Assembly (NCBI GenBank): GCA_041666265.1
Contig: JBAYHH010000001.1
Coordinates: 72,056 to 136,055, forward strand
Direction of reading: 5' to 3'
Length of the DNA stretch: 64,000 nucleotides
DNA from: Candidatus Magasanikiibacteriota bacterium
GTDB taxonomy: Bacteria > Patescibacteriota > Patescibacteriia > Magasanikbacterales > GWA2-37-8
The notes beneath the pieces were generated by a model. The model saw only the letters and a program-made list of their open reading frames with translations. It made no database searches and was not told the origin of the DNA. The position numbers were made by a program, and so were the translations under genes. Below are positions 19,080 through 50,825 of this stretch, piece after piece; position 1 is the first letter of the stretch, and each line of letters opens with the position of its first letter.

Positions 19080-19150
19080 GCGGGATTAGTACATCGGTAG
19101 TATGCGTCCTTCCCAAGGATGAGAGGCCGGTTCGATTCCGGTATCCCGCT
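19080..19150 (+). tRNA. tRNA-Gly(CCC)
   Basis: GCGGGAT acceptor stem, anticodon stem CGTCC/GGATG with loop TTCCCAA (CCC), T-arm GCCGG-TTCGATT-CCGGT; CCA not encoded. Confidence 0.85.
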
Positions 19151-19187
19151 CGATTCGGTAAACGACGGAATGGCTAAAATTTGGTAA

Positions 19188-19230
19188 AATATACCCATAT
19201 TGTGGACACCTGTGGATAAGCGGGTATAGA
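19188..19230 (+). promoter_or_regulatory. putative controller-protein operator: inverted repeat ATATACCC...GGGTATAG flanking direct repeats TGTGGACA / TGTGGATAA
   Basis: seen directly ~30-70 nt upstream of the XRE gene start (19259). TGTGGATAAG recurs at 22523 and 22719. Confidence 0.45.
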
Positions 19231-19258
19231 TATTCCAATATCACTATTATTATATCAC

Positions 19259-19468
19259 ATGGCAAATAAACTTCCAAATATCGCCAGAAACATTAAGAAG
19301 TTGCGAAAAGAAAAAGGACTCTCGCAAGATCGTCTTTCAAAAATGGCGGATATAGCCCATCCGACCATTATTAAAATCGAATCCGGCGCAATCCAAAGCC
19401 CGACGGTTGAAACCGCGCAACGAATCGCGCGTGCGTTGGGTGTTGGAATTGATGACTTAATGAAATAA
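19259..19468 (+). CDS. XRE/Cro-type HTH protein, probable controller (C) protein of the downstream restriction-modification module
   Basis: 69 aa; LRKEKGLSQDRLSKMADIAHPTIIKIESG classic HTH_3; sits directly upstream of the MTase-REase pair. Confidence 0.7.
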   Translation: MANKLPNIARNIKKLRKEKGLSQDRLSKMADIAHPTIIKIESGAIQSPTVETAQRIARALGVGIDDLMK

Positions 19469-19475
19469 TTTTTAT

Positions 19476-21251
19476 ATGGCGAAATTAAAAGACACTCCAA
19501 AATTTGATCGACCACGAGAAAAATATATTGAAAAAGGTCCTGACGCGCTAACCGATAGCGAACTTTTGGCGATTTTACTTGGCAATGGCACAAAAGGCAT
19601 GAATGTAAAAGTCGTTGCGCAAAAAATTATAAAAAAATTTGGAACCAATCTGATAAATGTGTCGGTTGACGAACTGAAAGAAATTAAAGGAATTGGGCAA
19701 GCAAAGGCATTACAAATTGTTTCGGTGATTGCGTTGGCGAAACGACTGTTTGATAAGCAAAATGCGCCGGACAATTTAGTTTTATCTGCGCAAGACGCGG
19801 TAAAATTAGTGATAGAATTGAAAGATAAAAAACAAGAACACCTCGTTTGTTTGTATCTTAATGCTCGCAATGCCTTAATTAAAAAGGAAATTGTTTCCAT
19901 TGGAACGCTGGACAAAAGCATTGTTCATCCGCGTGATATTTTTGCATTGGGTTTAGAGTTGCATGCGGCCGGTGTTATTCTCATACACAATCATCCGTCC
20001 GGGGATGTTAGACCAAGCGAGCAGGATAAGCAAGTTGTCAAAAGAATTATTGAAGCTGGGCAGTTAATGGGTGTTAACGTCGTAGATTTTCTCATAGTGG
20101 CCAAGAATGCCACGCATAGCGTGTTGGGTGAAACCAGTAACACCAAGTTAGCCGACATCGAATATGTGGCCGAAGGATTGCAAGCGTCGTTGTTTAGTTT
20201 GCTAACGGAAACAAAGCAGGTTTATTTTTATGGAAACAATTTGATTGATACTTCGCCGACCAGCAGTAAAAGTTTTCGTTTCATTGATTTGTTTGCCGGC
20301 ATTGGCGGTATACGAATCGCTTTTGAACGCAATGGCGGTCAATGTGTTTTCACATCTGAATTTGATGAACCGTGCCAAGTAATGTATGAGGCAAATTTTG
20401 GAGATAAACCACATGGAGATATCACGAAAATTTCTGCCGATGAAATACCGGATCACGATATTTTAACTGGCGGTTTTCCCTGCCAAGCATTTAGTATAAT
20501 TGGAAAGAAACGTGGATTTGCGGATACTCGCGGCACTTTATTTTTTGATGTTGAAAGAATTTTAAAGGTGAAACAACCAAAAGCTTTTCTTCTGGAGAAT
20601 GTAAAACAGTTAACATCTCATGACGGGGGGCGCACATTTAAGATAATTATAGAATCTTTAAAAAATCTAGGGTATTATGTCCATTACAAAGTGCTTAACG
20701 GTCTTGACTTTGGTGTGCCACAAAGACGACAAAGGATAATGATAGTTGGTTTCAAAGAGAATTATCCTTTTGAATTTCCGAAGAGCGGATCGGATAACAA
20801 AACATTAGCCGATATTTTGGAACCGGACGGCAAAATTGATAAAAAACATTATCTAAGCGACAGTTTTCGGAAAAAATTGCAAGAAAGATTAAAAGAACAG
20901 GGCAAAAAGCCTGCACCCCAACCATCTGTTTGGCATGAGAATAAAGGTGGCAATATCGGGATGCACCCTTACTCGTGCGCGTTGAGAGCCAATGGATCTT
21001 ATAATTATTTGACAGTGAACGGAGAGCGACGACTTACACCAAGAGAAATGTTGCGTTTGCAAGGATTCCCAGATACTTTTAGAGTTGTTGTTCCGGATAC
21101 ACAAGTGAGAAAACAAGCGGGCAATAGTGTGGTTATTCCAAAAATTCAAGCAGTCGCGCGCGCTATGGTGGAAGCAATGAAACAGCCAGCAAGGGACGAA
21201 TCACATAAAGTTGGCTCATTAATTAATAAATCTGAAATAATTTATGCCTAA
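19476..21251 (+). CDS. fusion protein: N-terminal RadC (HhH + JAB/MPN, UPF0758) domain joined to a C-terminal DNA (cytosine-5)-methyltransferase
   Basis: aa 1-225: DSELLAILLGNG...GIGQAKALQI (HhH) and HNHPSGDVRPSEQD (JAMM). aa ~260-591: m5C-MTase motif I DLFAGIGG, motif IV GFPCQAFS, motif VI LLENVKQL, motif X QAGNSV. Confidence 0.8.
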   Translation: MAKLKDTPKFDRPREKYIEKGPDALTDSELLAILLGNGTKGMNVKVVAQKIIKKFGTNLINVSVDELKEIKGIGQAKALQIVSVIALAKRLFDKQNAPDNLVLSAQDAVKLVIELKDKKQEHLVCLYLNARNALIKKEIVSIGTLDKSIVHPRDIFALGLELHAAGVILIHNHPSGDVRPSEQDKQVVKRIIEAGQLMGVNVVDFLIVAKNATHSVLGETSNTKLADIEYVAEGLQASLFSLLTETKQVYFYGNNLIDTSPTSSKSFRFIDLFAGIGGIRIAFERNGGQCVFTSEFDEPCQVMYEANFGDKPHGDITKISADEIPDHDILTGGFPCQAFSIIGKKRGFADTRGTLFFDVERILKVKQPKAFLLENVKQLTSHDGGRTFKIIIESLKNLGYYVHYKVLNGLDFGVPQRRQRIMIVGFKENYPFEFPKSGSDNKTLADILEPDGKIDKKHYLSDSFRKKLQERLKEQGKKPAPQPSVWHENKGGNIGMHPYSCALRANGSYNYLTVNGERRLTPREMLRLQGFPDTFRVVVPDTQVRKQAGNSVVIPKIQAVARAMVEAMKQPARDESHKVGSLINKSEIIYA

Positions 21252-22302
21252 CATTAGAATGTCAAAAGAGGCGATAGATACAATTATCCGCAAGTCGCGC
21301 GTCCATTTGTATAAGCCAATCCAAATTGCCGAATTACTATATCATCACAGAATAGATAAAAAACGATGGGACCTGCTTGATCTGGAATCGTATCGCAATG
21401 TATCAAAAAGATGGCGCGACGAAGTGTCCAATCGTTTGGTTGGCAGAATTTGCACATCAAGTCAAAAATTTCAAGATAATATTTTTGATACAAACGCAAT
21501 GCCGCCCAAGTTGCTGCGCGATTTAGGTCTTTTCAATAAGCGACGCAATGGGTTCGTAGAAGCGTATATTTATAATGCCTTAAATGAAAGACTGTCATCG
21601 GTGCATGATGTAAACACTTACATTCACAAATCAACAGCGGTGAGTTTTGATTTAAAAAAGATAGTCGCTTTGTTTGAGTTGAGCCCGGGATTAAAAAGAA
21701 GTGTGGACAAAATTTATGAAATTCTTGTATATGCGTTATTTTCTACTATCGTAAGAGCTCTACGCGCCCAAATAACACTTGAAATTTTGAACGAAGACAA
21801 GCAGCTGCTTAAAGATTTTGAGTCCTTTATTAAAATGGTGATGGGTATTGATGCCAAGAATACAAAGATAATATTGCCTGCAGCTTTATATAGAGCCGGT
21901 GTCGCCAATGCCGCAGATAGAGGGTTGGATATGTGGGCAAATTTCGGTCTGGCTATTCAAGTTAAACATTTAACACTTACGCCGGAATTAATGGAGGATG
22001 TGGCGAATGAAATAGCGGCGGATAGAATGGTTGTGGTTTGTATAGATTCCGAGAAAGAGGCCATAAATAATTTATTATCGCAAGTTGGTTGGGGAGAAAA
22101 AATCCATGGGATTATCACCATTGATGATCTGGATCAATGGTATAAAATTTGTCTTAGCGATAAGTATAGAAGTAATTTAGGTAAAAATTTATTGAAGGAT
22201 GTTGAAAGAGAGTTTGGTCTGGAATTCCCATCAAATTCTGAATTGATTCCATTTATAAACGAACGCGGATACGCGAAATTTAAGACGGATTTTAAATGGT
22301 AA
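21244..22302 (+). CDS. putative type II restriction endonuclease (unknown specificity), translationally coupled to the MTase
   Basis: 8-nt overlap with the MTase gene; AT-rich (~38% GC, estimated by eye); 352 aa with no similarity to housekeeping families. Assignment is by gene context. Confidence 0.45.
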   Translation: MPNIRMSKEAIDTIIRKSRVHLYKPIQIAELLYHHRIDKKRWDLLDLESYRNVSKRWRDEVSNRLVGRICTSSQKFQDNIFDTNAMPPKLLRDLGLFNKRRNGFVEAYIYNALNERLSSVHDVNTYIHKSTAVSFDLKKIVALFELSPGLKRSVDKIYEILVYALFSTIVRALRAQITLEILNEDKQLLKDFESFIKMVMGIDAKNTKIILPAALYRAGVANAADRGLDMWANFGLAIQVKHLTLTPELMEDVANEIAADRMVVVCIDSEKEAINNLLSQVGWGEKIHGIITIDDLDQWYKICLSDKYRSNLGKNLLKDVEREFGLEFPSNSELIPFINERGYAKFKTDFKW

Positions 22303-22446
22303 AGTATAAATTGTCAAACACATTGATGATGAATGGTTGTTTAAATAAAAAACAACCCCTTGCGGGGATGTTTCCAACCTTGTTTCCTAGACTGGTGACC
22401 CAGCCACGCCACCATCCGGTGACAGTTCGGAGAACAGGTTTTTGTA

Positions 22447-23301
22447 ATGCTATTATATACTGCAAACAAGCACTTGTCAATAGAAAATTTTGATATTTTA
22501 TCTAATATTAGCCAAAAGGGGCTGTGGATAAGTAATAATATGTCCGAATATTACACCCCTCAACGCACTAAAAATTTATACGACCCAAAATCACTGGACT
22601 CTTTTAAACTCTCGCGTTCCAAGATAGATTTGTTTTTAGAGTGTCCGCGTTGTTTTTATTTAGACCGTCGTTTAGGTGTGGGCCGACCGCCCGGATTTCC
22701 ATTTGCACTTAATTCGGCTGTGGATAAGTTGCTCAAGAAGGAATTTGATATCCACCGTGCTAAAAAACAGGCGCATCCATTGATAACCCACTACGGCGTT
22801 GACGCAGTGCCAATCGCGCACAAAGATTTGGATATCTGGCGTGAAAATTTTAAAGGCATACAATATTTACACGAGCCAACCAATTTGGTTATCACCGGCG
22901 CTATTGATGATCTCTGGCAAAATTCAAAAGGGGAGTATATTGTGGTGGATTATAAGTCCACATCCAAGGACGAAGATATTACCGAGCTTAATAAAGATTG
23001 GCAAGGCGGCTATAAGCGCCAAATGGAGGTGTACCAGTGGCTATTACGCCGGAATGGATATAAAGTGTCTAAGACTGGGTATTTTGTTTATTGCAATGGC
23101 CAAACCGACCGCAAGGCGTTTGATGCTAAGTTGGAATTTGATATCACTTTAATTGCCTACAAGGGCGATGATTCTTGGGTGGATAAAGCTGTTATTGGCG
23201 CGCATAAGTGTTTGAATGGCAATAAAATTCCAAAATCCGGCGCGGATTGCGATTATTGTGCGTATGTACAGGCGGTAGAAAGTAAAACATTGTTGACTTA
23301 G
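22447..23301 (+). CDS. Cas4/RecB-like PD-(D/E)xK nuclease with predicted Fe-S cluster cysteines (start uncertain; alternative ATG at 22540)
   Basis: N-terminal CPRCFY; AIDDLW...YIVVDYKST (D...D/ExK); QMEVYQW (QxxxY); C-terminal C-x14-CDYC cysteine cluster. Confidence 0.65.
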   Translation: MLLYTANKHLSIENFDILSNISQKGLWISNNMSEYYTPQRTKNLYDPKSLDSFKLSRSKIDLFLECPRCFYLDRRLGVGRPPGFPFALNSAVDKLLKKEFDIHRAKKQAHPLITHYGVDAVPIAHKDLDIWRENFKGIQYLHEPTNLVITGAIDDLWQNSKGEYIVVDYKSTSKDEDITELNKDWQGGYKRQMEVYQWLLRRNGYKVSKTGYFVYCNGQTDRKAFDAKLEFDITLIAYKGDDSWVDKAVIGAHKCLNGNKIPKSGADCDYCAYVQAVESKTLLT

Positions 23302-23417
23302 TGCGTTATTTTTAGTATTATCCTATCGAGTCGTATTTGTGAAATCGTCGGATCCGAGCCGTTATCGGTATTTTTCGTAAAAATGGGTTCTAACTTTTTC
23401 ATAAATACAGCTCCAAC

Positions 23418-23490
23418 GCCGCCTTAGCTCAGTTGGTAGAGCGACACATTCGTAACGTGTAGGTCTCGGGTTCGATTCCCGAAGGCGGCT
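23418..23490 (+). tRNA. tRNA-Thr(CGU)
   Basis: GCCGCCT acceptor, TAGCTCAGTTGGTAGAGC D-arm, anticodon loop TTCGTAA (CGU), T-arm TCGGG-TTCGATT-CCCGA. Confidence 0.8.
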
Positions 23491-23543
23491 CGATTTATAC
23501 ACAGCGCCATCTTGCCGATTGGCTTTTTTTGTTTTTGAATGTG

Positions 23544-31809: not shown

Positions 31810-34365
31810 TTAAAGACTGGCTTCACTTAAATCATTTTTTACCGTTGCGGGCGCGCCCAGTTGCGAGCGCTCCATAATTTCGGATTCGACGATTTCGCGC
31901 GGTCGGCCGTATTTGAGGCGAGATAGTTCTTTGATGGCGGCGGCCAGCTCGAGGTCGCCTTTCTGCGGGGGGAAGGTCATCATATTAAACGGCTTACAAG
32001 CAGTATTGTCAATAAGCAATTTAATGTAGGCGGTGTATTGCTCGACATTGATGAGATCGTGCGCGTTGAATACCGGCATAAATTCTTTTTGCAAAATCTC
32101 GGCATCATCCGGGCCGATGCGAAATGTCACGATCGTGCCGGCGTTGCCGATCACCGCGTCTCGGACCGTATTCTTTCCTTTATTGTCTACCAGCTGTCCC
32201 ATATATTGGTGGGCGATGATTAAATCGAGGCGGTATTTGCGCGCTTCAGACAAAATCGTAGCGATCGAATCGGTGATGAAATTTTGAAACTCGTCGATGT
32301 ATAAATAAAAATCGTGGCGATCGTCTTCGGCGAGGCTGGCGCGCTCCATCGCGGCCATTTGGAGTTTGGATACGATGATCATGCCGAGCATGTTGGAGTT
32401 GATCTCACCCACGAGACCTTTGGCCAAATTTACCAATAATATTTTTTTGTTATCCATCACTTCGCGAAAATTAAATCCGGAATGCGATTGGCCGATAATA
32501 TTGCGCATCATCGAGTTTTCGACAAAACGGCCGACTTTGGAAATCAAATAACCAAGCATTTCCGATTTGTGGAAATCAGATGTTTTGGCCATTTCTTTGT
32601 CCCAAAAGGCCATTACTACCGGATCTTTGAGTTTCTTTTTCCAACCGGCGACAAAGGCGTCATCGGTGAACATGCGCGGGACTTCGGCGATTGTGCCGGG
32701 AGTTTCGAGATCAGACATGAGGGTAAGCATTACATTGCGCATGTTGTGCTCAAACATCGGGCCGATCATTGACGGGTCCGTCACCATTTTATAAAACATG
32801 GCGATCATTTCTTGGGTGGCAAAATCTTTTTGTTCTTCGGATTTGACTTCAAGCATGTTGAGACCGACCGGACGATCAGTATCGGACGGATTGAAATAGA
32901 TCACATCATCGGCGCGTTCTTTGGGGACATGCTGTAAAACATATTCCACAAAATCCCCGTGCGGATCGATGACACACACGCCTTCGCCGTTAATCACATC
33001 TTGCACCGCCATGTTTTGGATAAAGACCGATTTACCCACACCGGATTTACCGATGGTATAGACATGGCGCCGGCGATCCGGTTTTTTGATGCGCACGGCT
33101 ACTTCTTCGCCGCGATAGACAGATCGCCCCAAGATGATGCCCTCGGTAGGCATATTGGTGGGCGGGGGAGCCTTGCGCGCGCCGAGCCAGTTGATGTGCG
33201 GGGTCTCGGTGCCCGGATTGGGCATGTGCCAGAGTGAGGCCATCTCCTCGGTATTGACCACCATGTATTTGCGTTCATTGAAAGAGCGGTAAATCGATTC
33301 GCGAATTAGACTGCTCGGACGGCTCGGCACTTTGGCGACAAAAGAATTGCCATAACGATAAATATTATACTGGCCGTAAGCGTTTAAAATATTTTGCAAA
33401 GTCAGAATGGCTTTTTCTTTGTTGCCGGCCGCCGTCACGACGCGCACATTGAGCTCCAGTCCGCCGTGGCTAAGTTTTTCCTCCATACTTTTGACCATTT
33501 CCTCTTCCATTTGGGTCAAGTGATACGATTCGCCAATGCCGCCTTGTTTGGAAGCGTCTTTGTCTTTGGGAAAAAATGTTTTTCTCCAGCGATAAAATCC
33601 ACGCATCAGCCAGCCGCGCTGAGCGACATATTCAAATTTTTGTCCTTCGCGAATATCGCGAATCATGTGCACGCCTTGCCGACGCCATTTGGCGCTGGCC
33701 GGTCGAACTATGTATTGGATCATCGCGCCCTCGTCGTCGGGAATTTTACTAAGCGGATTGAGCAGTGACAGCAAGGGGTCGCTTTCCATTTTTTTGAAAG
33801 TTTTGAAAGGAAAAGCCGATTTAAATTTATTCCACAGATGGGCGCCCACGATATGGCTATTGGGTTTGAAGATATTGTAATCAGGCTCTTCGGTGATTTC
33901 AGCGTGCGGATATTGCGCGTGGATTTGTTGCTCCACGAAATTGGTCAGTTTATCCGGCACGGCCACATAAAAAGATATTTTTCCACCGGTGGCGACAATC
34001 TCGAATGATAAATGATCATTGCGACCGCGCAACCAAGACAAAAATCCGCTTTCGCGCTTGAGTCCGGCAACGGCGGCAAACAGCGAATCGGCCACGGCGA
34101 TAACTTCACGCGTTAAATTAATGTTTTCCGACTGATTGGCCATGTTTGGATTTTCGTTTTTCTTTTCTTTTGGCACCTTGATCAAGATAATCGTGCGATG
34201 GAAGGCCTTGCCGGATTTATTGCGAGCGCGCCAAAAACCACGAATCACATGTAACGCCATCACCGCTCCAATGATCGCGATCAAGCCCAAAAAAAACAAA
34301 AAGACGGTCGGATGGGATCCGAGCCATTCGCTAAAAACGACAAGCAAATTAATTAGGTCGCTCAT
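31810..34365 (-). CDS. membrane-anchored FtsK/HerA-superfamily ATPase, type IV secretion coupling-protein (VirD4/TraG/TrwB)-like
   Basis: N-terminal TM (FLFFLGLIAIIGAVMAL); C-terminal ATPase with Walker A TIGKSGVGKS followed ~20 aa later by VIDPHGDF (T4CP DPxGE-like motif); SEARKYRLDLIIAHQ arginine-finger region. Confidence 0.6.
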   Translation of the reverse strand: MSDLINLLVVFSEWLGSHPTVFLFFLGLIAIIGAVMALHVIRGFWRARNKSGKAFHRTIILIKVPKEKKNENPNMANQSENINLTREVIAVADSLFAAVAGLKRESGFLSWLRGRNDHLSFEIVATGGKISFYVAVPDKLTNFVEQQIHAQYPHAEITEEPDYNIFKPNSHIVGAHLWNKFKSAFPFKTFKKMESDPLLSLLNPLSKIPDDEGAMIQYIVRPASAKWRRQGVHMIRDIREGQKFEYVAQRGWLMRGFYRWRKTFFPKDKDASKQGGIGESYHLTQMEEEMVKSMEEKLSHGGLELNVRVVTAAGNKEKAILTLQNILNAYGQYNIYRYGNSFVAKVPSRPSSLIRESIYRSFNERKYMVVNTEEMASLWHMPNPGTETPHINWLGARKAPPPTNMPTEGIILGRSVYRGEEVAVRIKKPDRRRHVYTIGKSGVGKSVFIQNMAVQDVINGEGVCVIDPHGDFVEYVLQHVPKERADDVIYFNPSDTDRPVGLNMLEVKSEEQKDFATQEMIAMFYKMVTDPSMIGPMFEHNMRNVMLTLMSDLETPGTIAEVPRMFTDDAFVAGWKKKLKDPVVMAFWDKEMAKTSDFHKSEMLGYLISKVGRFVENSMMRNIIGQSHSGFNFREVMDNKKILLVNLAKGLVGEINSNMLGMIIVSKLQMAAMERASLAEDDRHDFYLYIDEFQNFITDSIATILSEARKYRLDLIIAHQYMGQLVDNKGKNTVRDAVIGNAGTIVTFRIGPDDAEILQKEFMPVFNAHDLINVEQYTAYIKLLIDNTACKPFNMMTFPPQKGDLELAAAIKELSRLKYGRPREIVESEIMERSQLGAPATVKNDLSEASL

Positions 34366-48710: not shown

Positions 48711-50825
48711 ATGGTTGAGGAGGCACCAAACAATCCAACGCCGGCGAAACCGGTGGTCAAAGTTGATTCCGAAATCAACTATTTTGGCATGACTAATTTT
48801 CGCAATCAGAATCGTCGCTTTGGCATCAAAATCGACGATCGCCGCCGTCACATGTATACCGTCGGCAAGACCGGTATGGGCAAGACCACCATGTTGGAAA
48901 ACATGGTGCTCAATGATATTTATGCCGGTCATGGCGTGGGCGTGGTGGATCCGCATGGTGATTTTGCCGAAAAAATCATCGACTTTATTCCGCCCGAACG
49001 CATCAACGATGTTGTCTATTTCAATCCGGCCGACATGGACTACCCGATCGGTTTTAATATTTTGGAAACGATTCGTCCCGAGCAAAAACACCTGGTCGCC
49101 TCCGGTCTCATGGGCGTATTTAAAAAAATCTGGCCTGATGTCTGGAGCGCCCGCATGGAATACATTTTAAATAATACTTTGCTCGCTCTCCTGGATTTTC
49201 CGGGCACGACTTTACTTGGCATCAATCGCTTGCTCGCGGACCCGGAATACCGCGGGCGCGTGATCGGCAATCTCAAAGACCCGATTGTGAAGTCGTTTTG
49301 GAACACGGAGTTTGCCGGCTACAATGATCGTTACAAGCAAGAAGCGGTGGCACCGATCCAAAATAAAATCGGGCAATTTATGTCGGCGTCAGTGATCCGA
49401 AATATCGTGGCGCAAGTCAAATCGCGCATCAACATTCGCGAGATCATGGACACGCGCAAGATCCTCATCATGAATCTTTCCAAAGGACGCATTGGCGAAG
49501 ACAACTCGCGCTTGCTCGGCGGTATGCTGATCACCAAGATTCAGCTCGCCGCCATGGAGCGCGTCGATACCCCCGAGAAAGATCGCAAAGATTTCTTTTT
49601 GTATGTCGATGAGTTTCAGAATTTCGCGACCGAGAGTTTTTCCAATATTTTGTCCGAAGCGCGCAAATACCGTTTGGCATTGATCATGGCGCATCAATAC
49701 ATGGAGCAGCTTGAAGAGGAAGTGCTCGCCGCCGTCATCGGTAATGTGGGCACGATTGTTTCGTTTCGCGTCGGCTCGACCGATGCCGAGATTTTAGCCA
49801 AAGAATTTATCCCCACATTTTTGGAAACCGATATTGTAAATTTGGCGAAATATCAAGTATTTTTGAAATTAATGATCGACGGTATTTCGTCCCAACCATT
49901 TTCGGCCATGACATTGCCGCCGATTTTTTCTCAATCGCAACATAGCGCCGAAAAAGTGATCAAAGTTTCGCGCGAACGCTATGCGGTACCCAAAGAAAAA
50001 ATTGAAAATAAAATTGCGCGCTGGAGTGGAATGACCGATGGGGTGGATGATGACGATGAAGATGGTGATGGCATGGGAAATCTTCCGCCGGTGACATCGG
50101 TACCGAAGCCAGCGACAACGAGAGTCGAGGCGCCACGGCCGTCATTTAATAAACCGGCGCCCGTTCGGTCGGCGCCGGCCTCCCGACCACCATTTTCGCG
50201 TAGTCCGCAACCGCGCCCGCCACAAAATATTTCTACGCCCAAAAATATTAGTTTTTCACCGCCACCGGTCAAATCCGGACGGCAAGATAAAAATATTTAT
50301 CAGCGTCCGCCATCAGCGCCTGTTAAAAATCAACAACCGCAAAAACAATTCGTTAAGCCTGCCCCCAAACAAAATGATATTCCGGTGAGTGCTAGCGAGC
50401 CGATTGTTCTCGTGGATACCGCGCAAAAAGGACTTTCTCTGGCCGATGCTTTTAAACCGCGTGAGTCAGCTGTCAAAAAAGAAAATAAACGATCGAATTT
50501 TGTATCTGATACCAGCATAGAAAACGATCAACGCGATGCTACCGCTAAGGCATTGAACAAACAAATTGAACAAACGCCCAACCGCGATGATCACGGCAAT
50601 CTGATGTCCCAGCCGATTAAGCTCTCGTTACCCAAGCCGAATTCATCCACCGCTGTCATTTTGAGCCCTGCCTACCGGCAGGCAGGTGAAACGAAGAATC
50701 TCTCGTCGTCGCAATCTCCCAAGCCCGCCAATCAAAAGACCGACCGACCGACGATTATCCAGCCGGGCGTGGTCACCAAGGTCGAAAATAATGACGAAGA
50801 TGACGCTTGGCGATATGATAAATAA
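48711..50825 (+). CDS. cytoplasmic FtsK/HerA/T4CP-like ATPase with a ~300-aa Pro/Gln/Ser-rich disordered C-terminal tail; paralogue of 31810..34365
   Basis: Walker A TVGKTGMGKT followed by VVDPHGDF, SEARKYRLALIMAHQ; no TM segment; C-terminus is low complexity (PRPSFNKPAPVRSAPASRPPFSRSPQPRPPQN...). Confidence 0.6.
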   Translation: MVEEAPNNPTPAKPVVKVDSEINYFGMTNFRNQNRRFGIKIDDRRRHMYTVGKTGMGKTTMLENMVLNDIYAGHGVGVVDPHGDFAEKIIDFIPPERINDVVYFNPADMDYPIGFNILETIRPEQKHLVASGLMGVFKKIWPDVWSARMEYILNNTLLALLDFPGTTLLGINRLLADPEYRGRVIGNLKDPIVKSFWNTEFAGYNDRYKQEAVAPIQNKIGQFMSASVIRNIVAQVKSRINIREIMDTRKILIMNLSKGRIGEDNSRLLGGMLITKIQLAAMERVDTPEKDRKDFFLYVDEFQNFATESFSNILSEARKYRLALIMAHQYMEQLEEEVLAAVIGNVGTIVSFRVGSTDAEILAKEFIPTFLETDIVNLAKYQVFLKLMIDGISSQPFSAMTLPPIFSQSQHSAEKVIKVSRERYAVPKEKIENKIARWSGMTDGVDDDDEDGDGMGNLPPVTSVPKPATTRVEAPRPSFNKPAPVRSAPASRPPFSRSPQPRPPQNISTPKNISFSPPPVKSGRQDKNIYQRPPSAPVKNQQPQKQFVKPAPKQNDIPVSASEPIVLVDTAQKGLSLADAFKPRESAVKKENKRSNFVSDTSIENDQRDATAKALNKQIEQTPNRDDHGNLMSQPIKLSLPKPNSSTAVILSPAYRQAGETKNLSSSQSPKPANQKTDRPTIIQPGVVTKVENNDEDDAWRYDK

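What the first reader, a model, noticed from the sequence alone, without database searches (positions are those of the whole stretch)
19151..23417. AT-rich four-gene defence-like island between tRNA-Gly and tRNA-Thr: controller HTH, RadC::Dcm fusion, REase, Cas4-like nuclease
The 4.3-kb stretch between two tRNA genes is clearly more AT-rich than the flanking housekeeping DNA and is built like a controller-regulated type II RM operon. It has a 69-aa XRE HTH, a C5-MTase and a translationally coupled 352-aa nuclease candidate. It also carries two unusual additions: a RadC HhH+JAB domain fused to the methyltransferase, and a downstream Cas4-like Fe-S PD-(D/E)xK nuclease that shares an operator-like motif with the controller gene. 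I do not know of a described RM system with this composition.
Basis: partly seen in the sequence, partly recalled or inferred. Interest (0 to 1): 0.75.

Follow-up and report, generated by a model that had tools for sequence, protein, structure and literature searches.

The report
HaeII-type restriction system, RadC-fused methylase
A horizontally acquired, otherwise ordinary HaeII-type restriction-modification operon whose methyltransferase carries a complete RadC domain and a conserved sliding-clamp-binding-like peptide, an architecture I found in no paper yet present in 266 candidate-phyla species genomes; the neighbouring Cas4-like nuclease does not belong to it.

Summary
Three genes (19259-22302) form a controller / RadC::C5-methyltransferase / HaeII-family endonuclease operon. 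Its composition is foreign: M and R have the lowest GC3 in the window. Related cassettes recur in other candidate-phyla (CPR) genomes.

The RadC fusion is not a one-off. In 68 of 68 complete genes from species-representative genomes, the same N-terminal RadC module precedes a C5, Dam-type or N6/N4 methyltransferase. These lead operons with at least seven endonuclease families.

Between RadC and every methyltransferase lies a near-invariant peptide, Y-[VI]-[AS]-[DE]-G-x-Q-x-[ST]-L-F. AlphaFold places it in a low-confidence linker. It matches the bacterial clamp-binding consensus QL[S/D]LF. I found no paper describing this architecture.

The four-gene reading fails. The Cas4-like gene (true start 22540) has host-like codon usage. 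A convergent, previously unnoticed sRNA gene (Rfam DUF3800-IX, 22372-22440, minus strand) separates it from the operon. It belongs to a highly conserved CPR family seen next to many unrelated defence genes, and it co-occurs with only 1 of 80 RadC-methylase loci.

The shared 11-mer is real, but no comparative evidence supports it as an operator.

Verdict: a new variant of a known kind, moderately interesting as a handle on RadC.

The parts
19080..19151 (+). tRNA-Gly (CCC), left flank of the island
   Evidence: ARAGORN; Rfam tRNA, 55.9 bits
19152..19258 (+). Regulatory region upstream of the C gene. It holds an extended -10-like TGGTAAAAT (19181-19189), a 7-bp inverted repeat TATACCC/GGGTATA (19190-19196 / 19222-19228) that encloses 11-mer copy 1 (19210-19220), the 6-2-6 palindrome GATATTCCAATATC (19229-19242), and TATTAT (19245-19250) 8 nt before the ATG, which suggests a leaderless C transcript.
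   Evidence: Read directly from the sequence. Related C genes also show an upstream TGnTAnnnT element about 60-75 nt before the ATG and AT-rich ACTAT-type repeats near it. Which element is the operator is unresolved.
19259..19468 (+). Candidate controller (C) protein, a 69-aa XRE-family HTH
   Evidence: Pfam HTH_3 1.2e-17; PADLOC Control_protein 3e-8; weak match to C.BclI (2b5a, E = 0.0075). Homologous small HTH genes sit directly upstream of 13 related fusion genes: 11 of the 68 surveyed (about one in six) plus L011 and L013.
19476..20141 (+). RadC module of the fusion protein (aa 1-222): UPF0758_N, HhH and a JAB domain with HNHPSGD...PSxxD
   Evidence: Pfam and NCBIfam; PDB 2qlc RadC homologue, 4e-24; AlphaFold domain 12-222 with pLDDT 75-88. 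It is 70-82% identical in all fusions regardless of methyltransferase type. The zinc-ligand residues are invariant in 68 sequences. GC3 is 0.365, i.e. foreign like the rest of the cassette.
20163..20204 (+). Conserved linker peptide YVAEGLQASLFSLL (aa 230-243), a clamp-binding-motif-like short linear motif
   Evidence: Logo from 68 fusions: Y 68/68, G 67, Q 66, [ST] 67, L 66, F 66. It lies in the low-confidence linker 223-265, pLDDT 31-53. It is kept in C5, D12 and N6_N4 fusions and in a fusion with a degenerate JAB domain (P0085). It is absent from the standalone RadC of L011.
20271..21251 (+). C5-cytosine methyltransferase domain (aa 266-591), M.HhaI / M.HaeII-like
   Evidence: Pfam DNA_methylase 2e-95, profile positions 1-323 of 324. 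Best PDB match is M.HhaI (GCGC), 1.8e-75, including the target-recognition region. It is 76-79% identical overall (80-86% in the catalytic core) to standalone 327-340-aa methyltransferases; one of these, in L110, pairs with a HaeII endonuclease and Vsr. It is 59.6% identical to a Neisseria gonorrhoeae locus.
21244..22302 (+). HaeII-family type II restriction endonuclease, overlapping M by 8 nt
   Evidence: Pfam RE_HaeII 4.1e-127 (profile 2-338 of 338); PADLOC REase_II 5e-120. The same gene follows the fusion in L001, L011, L012, L013, L023 and L032.
22345..22480 (-). Independent sRNA gene. A consensus sigma-70 promoter TTGACA-17-TATAAT (22480->22452) is followed by the DUF3800-IX RNA (22440->22372) and an intrinsic terminator (22369->22355, then a T-run). 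It is convergent with R and divergent from ORF4.
   Evidence: Promoter matches 12 of 12 positions, and the terminator was found in the same scan. Rfam RF02968 scores 53.4 bits against a gathering score of 36.8, E = 8e-10, covering the full model 1-67. The minimum-energy fold reproduces the Rfam structure plus the terminator, z = -3.9.
22540..23301 (+). Cas4-like Fe-S PD-(D/E)XK nuclease (253 aa). It is a separate, host-like gene and not part of the RM operon.
   Evidence: PDDEXK_1 4.5e-16; the NCBIfam cas4 score of 31.7 is below the cutoff of 65. Homologues are 249-262 aa and 74-93% identical. Cysteines C35, C38, C224, C237 and C240 are invariant. The AlphaFold model has pLDDT 84; the best Foldseek matches are AdnAB nuclease, Cas4, MGME1, Exo5 and lambda exonuclease. 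Codon usage is host-like. Two RGCGCY sites lie inside the gene.
22522..22532 (+). 11-mer copy 2 (CTGTGGATAAG), 8 nt upstream of the ORF4 ATG; copy 3 lies at 22718-22728 inside ORF4
   Evidence: A partly similar TTAGCCAAA...GGATAA arrangement lies upstream of the ORF4 homologue in L009.
23418..23491 (+). tRNA-Thr (CGU), right flank
   Evidence: ARAGORN; Rfam, 66.9 bits

Best explanation
The region 19152-22302 is a horizontally acquired type II restriction-modification cassette of the HaeII family (expected site RGCGCY) in a candidate-phyla-radiation (Patescibacteria-like) chromosome.

**How the operon is built.** A small XRE-type HTH protein, the candidate controller, is transcribed first, probably leaderless. 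It is followed 7 nt later by the methyltransferase and, overlapping that by 8 nt, by the endonuclease. All three are therefore made from one transcript, and R is translationally coupled to M.

**Inferred activities (from family membership).** The C-terminal domain of M, which is HhaI-like, methylates C5 of a cytosine in the GCGC core. R cuts unmethylated sites.

**The unusual part.** The N-terminal 265 residues of M hold a complete, apparently catalytically intact RadC (UPF0758_N-HhH-JAB) and a near-invariant peptide, Y-[VI]-[AS]-[DE]-G-x-Q-x-[ST]-L-F-[DA]-L-L, in a flexible linker. This module is a portable unit. It sits in front of C5, Dam-type and N6/N4 methyltransferases of many different RM operons.

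**Proposed role (inferred, probability about 0.3-0.4).** The module is a targeting device. HhH/RadC engages DNA, and the QxSLF peptide docks on the beta sliding clamp. This would place the methyltransferase on newly synthesised or newly imported DNA. What the JAB domain does chemically remains unknown.

**What is not part of the system.** The DUF3800-IX sRNA gene (22345-22480, minus strand) and the Cas4-like nuclease gene (22540-23301) are separate transcription units. The nuclease looks like a resident, highly conserved CPR gene that often lies beside variable defence genes.
For: **Domain assignments:**

**Operon geometry:**

**Foreign composition of C, M (both halves) and R, but not ORF4:**

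**Recurrence of the cassette:**
- The same fusion-plus-HaeII pair sits in different genomic contexts in L001, L011, L012, L013, L023 and L032.
- A RadC-less M + HaeII R + Vsr cassette occurs in L110, and its MTase is 78% identical to the window's MTase half.

**Modularity:** the RadC part is 70-82% identical across all fusions, whereas the MTase recognition region falls to 17-30%.

**Survey of species genomes:** there are 266 relatives. Among the best 80 loci, all 68 complete genes are RadC + MTase: 44 D12, 24 C5 and 3 N6_N4.
- 67 have a tightly coupled downstream gene (gap -86 to +105 nt; within -26 to +29 in 63 of them).
- That gene is an endonuclease of the AlwI, HpaII, NgoFVII, HinP1I, HaeII, MvaI/BcnI or EcoRII family, or a second MTase.
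- In all 8 second-MTase loci sampled, the next gene is an AlwI-family endonuclease.

**Linker motif:**
- Near-invariant.
- Located in a low-pLDDT linker between two confident domains.
- Retained where the JAB domain is degenerate.
- Absent from the standalone RadC encoded 4.5 kb from a fusion in L011.
- A similar QDSLF peptide precedes motif I of a RadC-less MTase in L111.
- The published clamp-binding consensus is QL[S/D]LF, more generally QxxLF, with positions 1, 4 and 5 critical (PMC12309361).

**Separation of ORF4:**
Against: - No biochemical or methylome data exist. The RGCGCY specificity is inferred from family membership only.
- Avoidance of the site inside the cassette is weak evidence: 0 of 16 GCGC cores are in RGCGCY context, against 17% elsewhere (P about 0.05-0.09).
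- The window as a whole is not depleted in RGCGCY: 94 sites against 66 expected.
- The HTH protein is a generic XRE member with only weak similarity to characterised C proteins, and its operator is not identified.
- QxxLF is short. The conserved peptide is longer than a canonical clamp-binding motif (about 14 residues) and could instead dock within the protein or be a processing site.
- The window's RadC has Asp where 68 of 68 surveyed fusions have Glu (HPRD versus HPRE).
- No empty site was found, so the insertion boundaries are unknown.
Confidence: 0.75

Rival explanations
1. One reading: all four genes form one composite defence system, in which the Cas4-like nuclease is a second effector co-regulated with the RM genes by the controller protein through the shared 11-mer.
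For: - The genes are adjacent and co-oriented.
- The exact 11-mer CTGTGGATAAG lies upstream of both the C gene and ORF4 and occurs nowhere else in the window.
- Homologues of ORF4 often lie among defence genes.
- One RadC-methylase locus (L060) has an ORF4 homologue about 4.7 kb downstream.
Against: - A complete convergent sRNA gene with its own consensus promoter and terminator lies between R and ORF4.
- ORF4 has host-like GC3 and codon usage and contains two RGCGCY sites, whereas C-M-R has none.
- ORF4 homologues were found near 1 of 80 surveyed loci and in none of the close cassettes L001 and L011-L014.
- The 11-mer is absent upstream of the 10 related C genes examined and from the loci then held.
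- The third 11-mer copy is in coding sequence.
Confidence: 0.05
2. The RadC module is the organism's ordinary housekeeping radC. It became fused by chance when an M-R cassette landed downstream, or was fused 'selfishly' so that losing the RM system costs the host RadC. The fusion has no mechanistic meaning for methylation.
For: - The module passes the NCBIfam RadC equivalog cutoff.
- The nearest standalone RadC proteins are 55-70% identical.
- The same methyltransferase exists without RadC.
Against: - The RadC half has the same foreign GC3 as M and R.
- The fused gene travels with the endonuclease into unrelated genomic contexts.
- L011 carries both a fusion and a separate standalone radC.
- The module is fused to three unrelated methyltransferase families, always at the N-terminus and always with the same extra peptide that standalone RadC lacks.
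- The module is 70-82% identical across different CPR classes.
Confidence: 0.12
3. The JAB domain is a protease that removes C5-methyltransferase molecules trapped covalently on DNA, acting as a built-in DNA-protein-crosslink repair function.
For: - C5 methyltransferases form a covalent Cys-C6 intermediate (established enzymology).
- JAB domains are metallopeptidases in other contexts.
- The catalytic H-x-H...S-x-x-D residues are conserved.
Against: - The same module and linker are fused more often to Dam-type (44 of 68) and N6/N4 methyltransferases, which form no covalent adduct.
- Iyer et al. argue that RadC-type JAB domains lack the peptide-binding groove and are more likely to process nucleic acids (PMC5512222).
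Confidence: 0.05
4. The conserved linker peptide does not bind the clamp. [quoted passage not shown]
For: - Conservation extends six residues N-terminal of QxSLF, including an invariant Y and G.
- The motif itself has pLDDT of about 50 rather than the 31 of the following spacer, and it contains a short predicted helix.
- Polyvalent-protein precedent: PMC5512222.
Against: - The motif is kept in P0085, where the JAB zinc site is lost.
- It also occurs before a methyltransferase with no RadC at all.
- AlphaFold does not dock it confidently on either domain.
Confidence: 0.2

Closest known systems
HaeII / NgoAI-type type II restriction-modification systems (site RGCGCY, from my own knowledge of REBASE)
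   Same: - The endonuclease is a full-length RE_HaeII family member.
- The partner is a C5 methyltransferase whose closest solved relative is M.HhaI (GCGC).
- M precedes R with overlapping genes.
- Related cassettes carry Vsr.
   Different: - The methyltransferase carries a 265-residue N-terminal RadC + linker extension.
- This copy has a C gene and no Vsr.
- Specificity has not been tested.
Controller (C-protein) regulated RM systems such as PvuII, AhdI, Esp1396I and BclI
   Same: - A 69-aa HTH gene lies directly upstream of and co-oriented with M and R.
- Palindromic elements lie next to a -10-like box, and the start is possibly leaderless.
- PADLOC Control_protein hit.
   Different: - Gene order is C-M-R rather than the common C-R.
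- There is only weak sequence similarity to characterised C proteins.
- No recognisable GACT...AGTC C-box is present.
- A C gene accompanies only about one in six of the surveyed RadC-methylase operons, 11 of 68.
RadC (YicR/YsxA) and the RadC fusions described by Iyer, Aravind and colleagues (to HhH, ArdC, DnaG-primase, DinG helicase; polyvalent proteins of conjugative elements)
   Same: - Same UPF0758_N-HhH-JAB organisation with conserved metal-binding residues.
- As in those fusions, the partner is a DNA-acting enzyme of a conflict system.
   Different: - Fusion to DNA methyltransferases of RM operons is not listed in those papers or in any paper I could search.
- The fused form carries an extra conserved peptide that standalone RadC lacks.
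Beta-clamp-binding-motif proteins (polymerases, MutS, Hda, IS transposases) and, by analogy, eukaryotic Dnmt1-PCNA tethering
   Same: The peptide Q-x-[ST]-L-F has conserved positions 1, 3, 4 and 5 and lies in a disordered segment. It fits QL[S/D]LF / QxxLF (PMC12309361). Proteins of mobile elements are known clamp clients (PMC4549789, listed).
   Different: Binding is untested. The conserved block is longer than a canonical motif. I know of no bacterial RM methyltransferase reported to bind the clamp.
Cas4 / AddB / AdnAB-type Fe-S RecB-family nucleases (for ORF4)
   Same: - PD-(D/E)XK fold with one N-terminal and three C-terminal invariant cysteines.
- The top Foldseek hits are AdnAB, Cas4 (4r5q, 4ic1, 7mi4), MGME1 and Exo5.
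   Different: - It scores below the NCBIfam cas4 cutoff.
- No cas1/cas2 genes or helicase partner lie among the adjacent genes.
- The family is unusually conserved (74-93% identity) across CPR classes and sits in variable neighbourhoods.
DUF3800-IX RNA motif (Rfam RF02968; Weinberg et al. 2017)
   Same: Full-length match above the gathering score, with a 3' intrinsic terminator as described for several DUF3800 motifs.
   Different: No DUF3800 protein domain was detected in the four island proteins. In three viral contigs the RNA lies next to terminase genes instead.

Membership tests
Type II RM system, HaeII family | Endonuclease homologous to R.HaeII over its full length | tested here: met
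   Pfam RE_HaeII 4.1e-127, profile positions 2-338 of 338; PADLOC REase_II 5e-120
Type II RM system, HaeII family | Adjacent cognate methyltransferase with a complete catalytic domain | tested here: met
   Pfam DNA_methylase 2e-95, profile positions 1-323 of 324. The catalytic PCQ and ENV motifs are invariant in the alignment. Best PDB match is M.HhaI.
Type II RM system, HaeII family | Recognition and cleavage of RGCGC^Y, and protection by m5C | not testable with these tools
   Only indirect evidence: 0 of 16 GCGC cores in the cassette are RGCGCY, against 17% in the rest of the window (P about 0.05).
C-protein controlled RM system | Small HTH gene immediately upstream of, and co-transcribed with, the RM genes | tested here: met
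   The 69-aa HTH_3 gene ends 7 nt before M. Homologous HTH genes lie upstream of 13 related fusion genes.
C-protein controlled RM system | Conserved palindromic C-box operators upstream of the C gene | tested here: inconclusive
   The palindrome GATATTCCAATATC and the inverted repeat TATACCC/GGGTATA are present, but no element is shared with the 10 related upstream regions examined.
C-protein controlled RM system | Specific sequence similarity to characterised C proteins | tested here: inconclusive
   PADLOC Control_protein 3e-8, but generic XRE models score better. C.BclI matches at E = 0.0075.
RadC family (UPF0758) | UPF0758_N/HhH plus a JAB domain, scoring above the curated family threshold | tested here: met
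   NCBIfam PRK00024 equivalog 217.6 bits (cutoff 180); TIGR00608 199 bits (cutoff 133.85); Pfam RadC 6e-36
RadC family (UPF0758) | Intact JAMM metal site (HxH...S..D) and the upstream acidic residue | tested here: met
   H171, H173 and D184 are invariant, and S181 is conserved in at least 90% of the 68 fusions. The window has HPRD where all 68 surveyed fusions have HPRE, a conservative change.
Beta-clamp-binding motif (QL[S/D]LF / QxxLF) | Sequence match with conserved positions 1, 4 and 5 | tested here: met
   Q 66/68, L 66/68, F 66/68 and S/T 67/68 at position 3. Consensus taken from PMC12309361.
Beta-clamp-binding motif (QL[S/D]LF / QxxLF) | Location in an exposed, flexible segment | tested here: met
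   The AlphaFold linker 223-265 has pLDDT 31-53 and lies between two confident domains.
Beta-clamp-binding motif (QL[S/D]LF / QxxLF) | Physical binding to DnaN | not testable with these tools
   No complex prediction or binding assay was available.
Cas4 (CRISPR-associated) | Score above the curated cas4 threshold | tested here: not met
   TIGR00372 scores 31.7 bits against a cutoff of 65.
Cas4 (CRISPR-associated) | Neighbourhood containing cas1/cas2 or a CRISPR array | tested here: not met
   In the window the neighbours are R.HaeII, the sRNA, tRNA-Thr and an ABC ATPase-like ORF that overlaps a 318-aa membrane-like ORF. No cas genes appear in six homologue neighbourhoods.
RecB-family PD-(D/E)XK nuclease with Fe-S cluster | PD-(D/E)XK fold plus a four-cysteine cluster | tested here: met
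   PDDEXK_1 4.5e-16. C35/C38, C224, C237 and C240 are invariant. Foldseek probability is 1.0 to AdnAB, Cas4 and MGME1.
DUF3800-IX RNA (RF02968) | Covariance-model score above the gathering threshold | tested here: met
   53.4 bits against 36.8, covering the full model.
DUF3800-IX RNA (RF02968) | Association with a nearby DUF3800-domain gene | tested here: not met
   No DUF3800 hit in any of the four island proteins. The viral examples flank terminase genes.

The most novel reading that the evidence does not exclude
The RadC-linker module is a dedicated replisome or DNA-entry tether for restriction-modification methyltransferases. The QxSLF peptide would dock on the beta sliding clamp, and RadC would act on the nascent or incoming strand. 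Methylation in these tiny-genome organisms would then be physically coupled to DNA synthesis, a bacterial counterpart of Dnmt1-PCNA. This would also give RadC, a protein without an established function for more than 30 years, its first defined molecular context.
Probability: 0.3. Interest if true: 0.85.

Novelty: new variant of a known kind. Interest (0 to 1): 0.6.

Why it matters
RadC is nearly universal in bacteria, but its function is unknown; its original 'DNA repair' label is disputed (the dispute is noted in PMC3239186 and PMC5512222).

Here a RadC module of one conserved type has been attached repeatedly to three unrelated families of DNA methyltransferases. These belong to at least seven endonuclease families of restriction systems. 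The module always sits at the N-terminus and always carries the same extra clamp-binding-like peptide. This gives a concrete, testable hypothesis for what RadC is associated with: DNA that is being replicated or imported and needs methylation.

It also shows that restriction-modification systems in candidate-phyla bacteria carry an accessory module not seen in 50,697 phage records or 72,556 plasmid records, which come largely from cultured hosts. That matters for understanding defence and DNA uptake in these organisms.

The HaeII-type system itself is ordinary.

Tried and rejected
1. **Empty-site search for the insertion boundaries.** The metagenome scan with the upstream PpiC-like gene gave only distant relatives. 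The exact-protein lookup found only the same strain. The boundaries stay undefined.

2. **The 11-mer as a C-box.** I searched the loci then held and compared 10 related C-gene upstream regions. It is not conserved. I also considered it as a target-site duplication flanking C-M-R. That was rejected because it is asymmetric relative to the 22-nt inverted repeat and because a TTAGCCAAA...GGATAA arrangement is native to an ORF4 homologue's upstream region. A DnaA-box reading (TGTGGATAA) cannot be tested; GC skew shows no origin here.

3. **DNA-protein-crosslink protease idea for the JAB domain.** Dropped once Dam-type fusions proved to be the majority.

4. **Fusion as a sequencing or annotation artefact.** Rejected: the ORF is continuous, 68 of 68 complete ORFs occur in independent genomes, and the linker contains no internal Met.

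5. **Genome-wide restriction-site avoidance as support for specificity.** It is absent: 94 observed against 66 expected. Inside the cassette it is only marginal.

6. **DUF3800-IX RNA as part of the RM cassette or of the ORF4 unit.** It was not found in any other RM locus or ORF4-homologue locus.

7. **Sequence search of ORF4 against the PDB.** It gave nothing. A structure-based search was needed.

Full report
**1. Observation**

tRNA-Gly(CCC) lies at 19080-19151 and tRNA-Thr(CGU) at 23418-23491. Four + strand ORFs lie between them. Profile searches give the following.

- **ORF 1, 19259-19468, 69 aa:** XRE-type HTH (HTH_3, 1.2e-17; PADLOC Control_protein, 3e-8).
- **ORF 2, 19476-21251, 591 aa:** UPF0758_N (5e-23), HhH, RadC-JAB (6e-36) and DNA_methylase (2e-95). 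It passes the curated NCBIfam RadC equivalog threshold (217.6 bits against 180).
- **ORF 3, 21244-22302, 352 aa:** full-length HaeII-family endonuclease (4e-127). It overlaps M by 8 nt.
- **ORF 4:** PD-(D/E)XK protein (PDDEXK_1, 4.5e-16). Its cas4 score of 31.7 is below the cutoff of 65.

The true start of ORF 4 is the ATG at 22540, which gives 253 aa. Its homologues are 249-262 aa long.

**2. Composition**

Host genes in the window have GC3 of 0.498 +/- 0.051. M (0.343) and R (0.363) are the two lowest values, and C is 0.414. The RadC half of M (0.365) is as deviant as the methyltransferase half (0.309). ORF4 (0.445, codon log-likelihood -1.03 against a host mean of -1.05) cannot be distinguished from host genes. 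The foreign segment is therefore C-M-R, about 3.1-3.3 kb, not the whole 4.3 kb.

The cassette contains 16 GCGC cores but no RGCGCY. In the rest of the window 17% of cores are in that context (binomial P = 0.045, Fisher P = 0.087). ORF4 contains two RGCGCY sites. The window as a whole is not depleted: 94 sites against 66 expected.

**3.

On the minus strand between R and ORF4 there is a perfect TTGACA-17-TATAAT promoter (22480->22452) and an intrinsic terminator (22369->22355). Between them is a full-length match to Rfam DUF3800-IX RNA (22440->22372; 53.4 bits against a gathering score of 36.8). The minimum-energy fold reproduces the Rfam structure plus the terminator, with z = -3.9.

This RNA class was described by Weinberg et al. 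2017 as associated with DUF3800 genes; its function is unknown. No DUF3800 domain was detected in the four island proteins. Three further examples in viral contigs lie next to terminase genes. The RNA is absent from all other RM loci and ORF4 loci examined. Its position makes R and ORF4 separate transcription units.

**4. The RM cassette elsewhere**

Proteins 70-81% identical to the fusion are followed by HaeII-family endonucleases in unrelated genomic contexts.

- L001: no C gene.
- L011: transposase, C, fusion, R and Vsr.
- L012: fusion and R.
- L013: C, an unknown gene, fusion, R, Vsr and GmrSD.
- L023 and L032: fusion and R.

A Lloydbacteria contig (L110) has the same methyltransferase without RadC (327 aa, 78% identical to the MTase half), followed by a HaeII endonuclease and Vsr.

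The methyltransferase half matches M.HhaI (GCGC) at 1.8e-75, including the recognition region. It is 59.6% identical to a Neisseria gonorrhoeae locus. From my own knowledge that species carries the HaeII isoschizomer NgoAI. The system is therefore a HaeII-type RM system; its specificity is inferred, not shown.

**5. The RadC fusion is a widespread module**

Among the 120 best relatives of the fusion, more than 90 clusters share the architecture. Splitting the alignment shows two patterns.

- The RadC part stays 68-82% identical in all but one fusion. The exception is P0085, whose RadC-like region is degenerate.
- The methyltransferase part falls into several recognition-domain groups, with 17-30% identity in the recognition region for non-HaeII types.

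The window's RadC is as close to RadC modules fused to other methylase types, for example P0012 (82%) and P0009 (81%), as to HaeII-type ones (75-80%).

A search with the RadC part alone also found fusions to Dam-type (PF02086) and N6_N4 (PF01555) methyltransferases. A scan of 185,579 species genomes gave 266 relatives. Among the best 80 loci:

- All 68 complete genes are RadC + methyltransferase: 44 match D12, 24 C5 and 3 N6_N4, with a few matching more than one family.
- 67 have a tightly coupled downstream gene, with a gap of -86 to +105 nt (within -26 to +29 in 63).
- That gene is AlwI-family in 17, HpaII in 11, NgoFVII-like in 5, HinP1I in 3, HaeII in 2, MvaI/BcnI in 2, EcoRII in 1, or a second D12 methylase in 22.
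- In all 8 second-methylase loci sampled, the next gene is an AlwI-family endonuclease.

The hosts are many CPR classes plus genomes labelled Omnitrophota, Atribacteria, Margulisiibacteriota, WWE3, Nitrospirae and a few archaea. Some labels on short contigs may be binning errors. No phage or plasmid record from GenBank or PLSDB covers 80% or more of the fusion. L011 carries a separate standalone radC 4.5 kb from its fusion, so the fused module is not simply the host's only RadC.

**6. The linker peptide**

Directly after the RadC domain, all fusions share Y-[VI]-[AS]-[DE]-G-x-Q-x-[ST]-L-F-[DA]-[LM]-[LF]. The counts are Y 68/68, G 67, Q 66, S/T 67, L 66 and F 66. A variable Lys/Asn-rich spacer follows, and then methyltransferase motif I. 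Further observations:

- The peptide is as conserved as the JAB metal ligands.
- It is retained in P0085, whose JAB site is degenerate.
- It is missing from the standalone RadC of L011.
- A QDSLF version precedes motif I of a RadC-less HpaII-like methylase in a gut virome contig (L111).

AlphaFold2, run with a 65-sequence alignment, predicts confident RadC (12-222) and methyltransferase (266-575) domains. They are joined by a low-confidence linker, with pLDDT 53, 52 and 31 for residues 231-260. The peptide lies in this linker.

High conservation in a disordered segment is typical of a short linear motif that binds a partner in trans. Because the methylase and endonuclease families vary, that partner must be something common to the hosts. 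The sequence fits the bacterial clamp-binding consensus QL[S/D]LF / QxxLF, in which positions 1, 4 and 5 are critical (PMC12309361). Binding is not shown. I give this reading about 0.3-0.4. An intramolecular latch or processing site is the main alternative.

**7. What RadC might do**

[quoted passage not shown] They propose a role in nucleic-acid processing rather than peptidase activity. Methyltransferase fusions are not mentioned there or in any paper retrieved.

I considered a role in proteolysing trapped C5-methylase adducts. I rejected it as the general explanation because most fusions are to N6-adenine enzymes. The best-supported inference is a targeting or accessory role on DNA that is being synthesised or imported. 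The chemistry of the JAB domain remains unknown.

**8. The controller and the 11-mer**

The HTH gene is a generic XRE member, with a weak match to C.BclI (E = 0.0075). Its position, size and recurrence upstream of 13 related fusion genes (11 of the 68 surveyed, plus L011 and L013) fit a C protein.

Upstream of it lie four elements:
- an extended -10-like element;
- a 7-bp inverted repeat, TATACCC/GGGTATA, that encloses the 11-mer;
- a 6-2-6 palindrome, GATATTCCAATATC;
- a TATTAT box 8 nt before the ATG, which suggests a leaderless transcript.

The 11-mer CTGTGGATAAG occurs three times and only in the island. One copy is in coding sequence. No similarity extends beyond the 11 bases. It is absent upstream of the 10 related C genes examined and from the loci then held. 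It contains the reverse complement of a perfect DnaA box. Its meaning is unexplained, and nothing supports a shared operator. A 22-nt imperfect inverted repeat (19171-19192 / 22493-22514) brackets C-M-R plus the sRNA. It shows no target-site duplication.

**9. ORF4**

The best 120 are 74-93% identical and come from many CPR classes. Cysteines C35/C38, C224, C237 and C240 are invariant. The AlphaFold model (pLDDT 84) matches the AdnAB and AddAB nuclease domains, Cas4, MGME1, Exo5 and lambda exonuclease. ORF4 is therefore a RecB-family Fe-S nuclease. It is not Cas4 by the curated threshold or by genomic context.

In six independent neighbourhoods, the genes adjacent to it differ:
- a reverse transcriptase in L005 and L006;
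- type III RM and TIR genes in L006;
- MazG, an SLFN-like helicase and SocA/Panacea in L106;
- a serine recombinase, an EcoRI-type methylase and GmrSD in L108;
- a divergently oriented ABC transporter in L009;
- the RM cassette in the window.

In five of the six the upstream genes are co-oriented with it. Only 1 of 80 RadC-methylase loci has a copy nearby. It is best read as a conserved resident gene next to a variable, defence-rich position. That pattern deserves its own study.

**10. Verdict**

The core is a HaeII-type, probably C-controlled, horizontally acquired RM operon, which is ordinary in kind. Its methyltransferase belongs to a large class of RadC-linker-methyltransferase fusions that I could not find described in any paper. 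The conserved linker peptide offers a testable link to the sliding clamp. The four-gene single-system model and the operator claim are not supported. The insertion boundaries could not be determined.

Noticed in passing
window 22345-22480 (minus strand): A complete sRNA gene: a consensus sigma-70 promoter, the Rfam DUF3800-IX RNA (53.4 bits) and an intrinsic terminator. No DUF3800 domain was detected in the four island proteins. The same RNA lies next to terminase genes in three IMG/VR contigs (L103-L105).
   Followed up: partly
window 22289-22317 (minus strand): A second strong promoter-like site (TTGACA-17-TAAAAT, 11 of 12 positions) overlaps the R stop codon and points antisense into the 3' end of the endonuclease gene. 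It may produce an antisense transcript.
   Followed up: no
window 22540-23301; loci L005-L010, L106-L109: The Cas4-like PD-(D/E)XK family is 74-93% identical across many CPR classes. In five of six neighbourhoods it lies at the 3' edge of co-oriented, variable defence or mobile genes (RT, type III RM, TIR, SLFN-like helicase, SocA/Panacea, GmrSD, serine recombinase). It may be an anchor for a defence-island hotspot or a shared component.
   Followed up: partly
window 19210-19220, 22522-22532, 22718-22728: The exact 11-mer CTGTGGATAAG occurs three times, only in the island. It contains the reverse complement of a perfect DnaA box (TTATCCACA). A weaker related box (TTGTGGACA) lies 11 nt upstream of the first copy.
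   Followed up: partly
L111 (MT837540.1), ORF 270-1577: A human-gut virome contig encodes an HpaII-like C5 methyltransferase without RadC. Its N-terminal extension contains AAEPLQDSLFNDFF about 20 residues before motif I, so the clamp-binding-like peptide is also found without RadC.
   Followed up: no
L003 8001-12702: A Moranbacteria contig places a RadC::C5-methylase / HpaII endonuclease / Vsr cassette directly upstream of a CD-NTase + Cap15-like (CBASS-type) gene pair, forming a compact defence island.
   Followed up: no
P0085 (512 aa): A HaeII-type fusion whose RadC-like region has lost the HxH zinc site but keeps the GYIAEGRQATLFDLL peptide. This suggests the peptide functions independently of JAB catalysis.
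   Followed up: partly
window 31810-34365 (minus strand) and 48711-50825 (plus strand): Two large TrwB/VirD4-like coupling-protein ATPases lie among housekeeping genes (LigA, DnaX, MetRS, CysRS). This fits a CPR-type chromosome.
   Followed up: no
L011 1783-1815, L013 1-33, L037 upstream of its C gene: Three related cassettes share the sequence TTTTAAGCCAAAAGCAAACTTTTCTTTTTTTGTTGA just upstream of their C genes. It may be a cassette boundary or a terminator. The window has a short similar string, TTAGCCAAAAG, at 22508.
   Followed up: no
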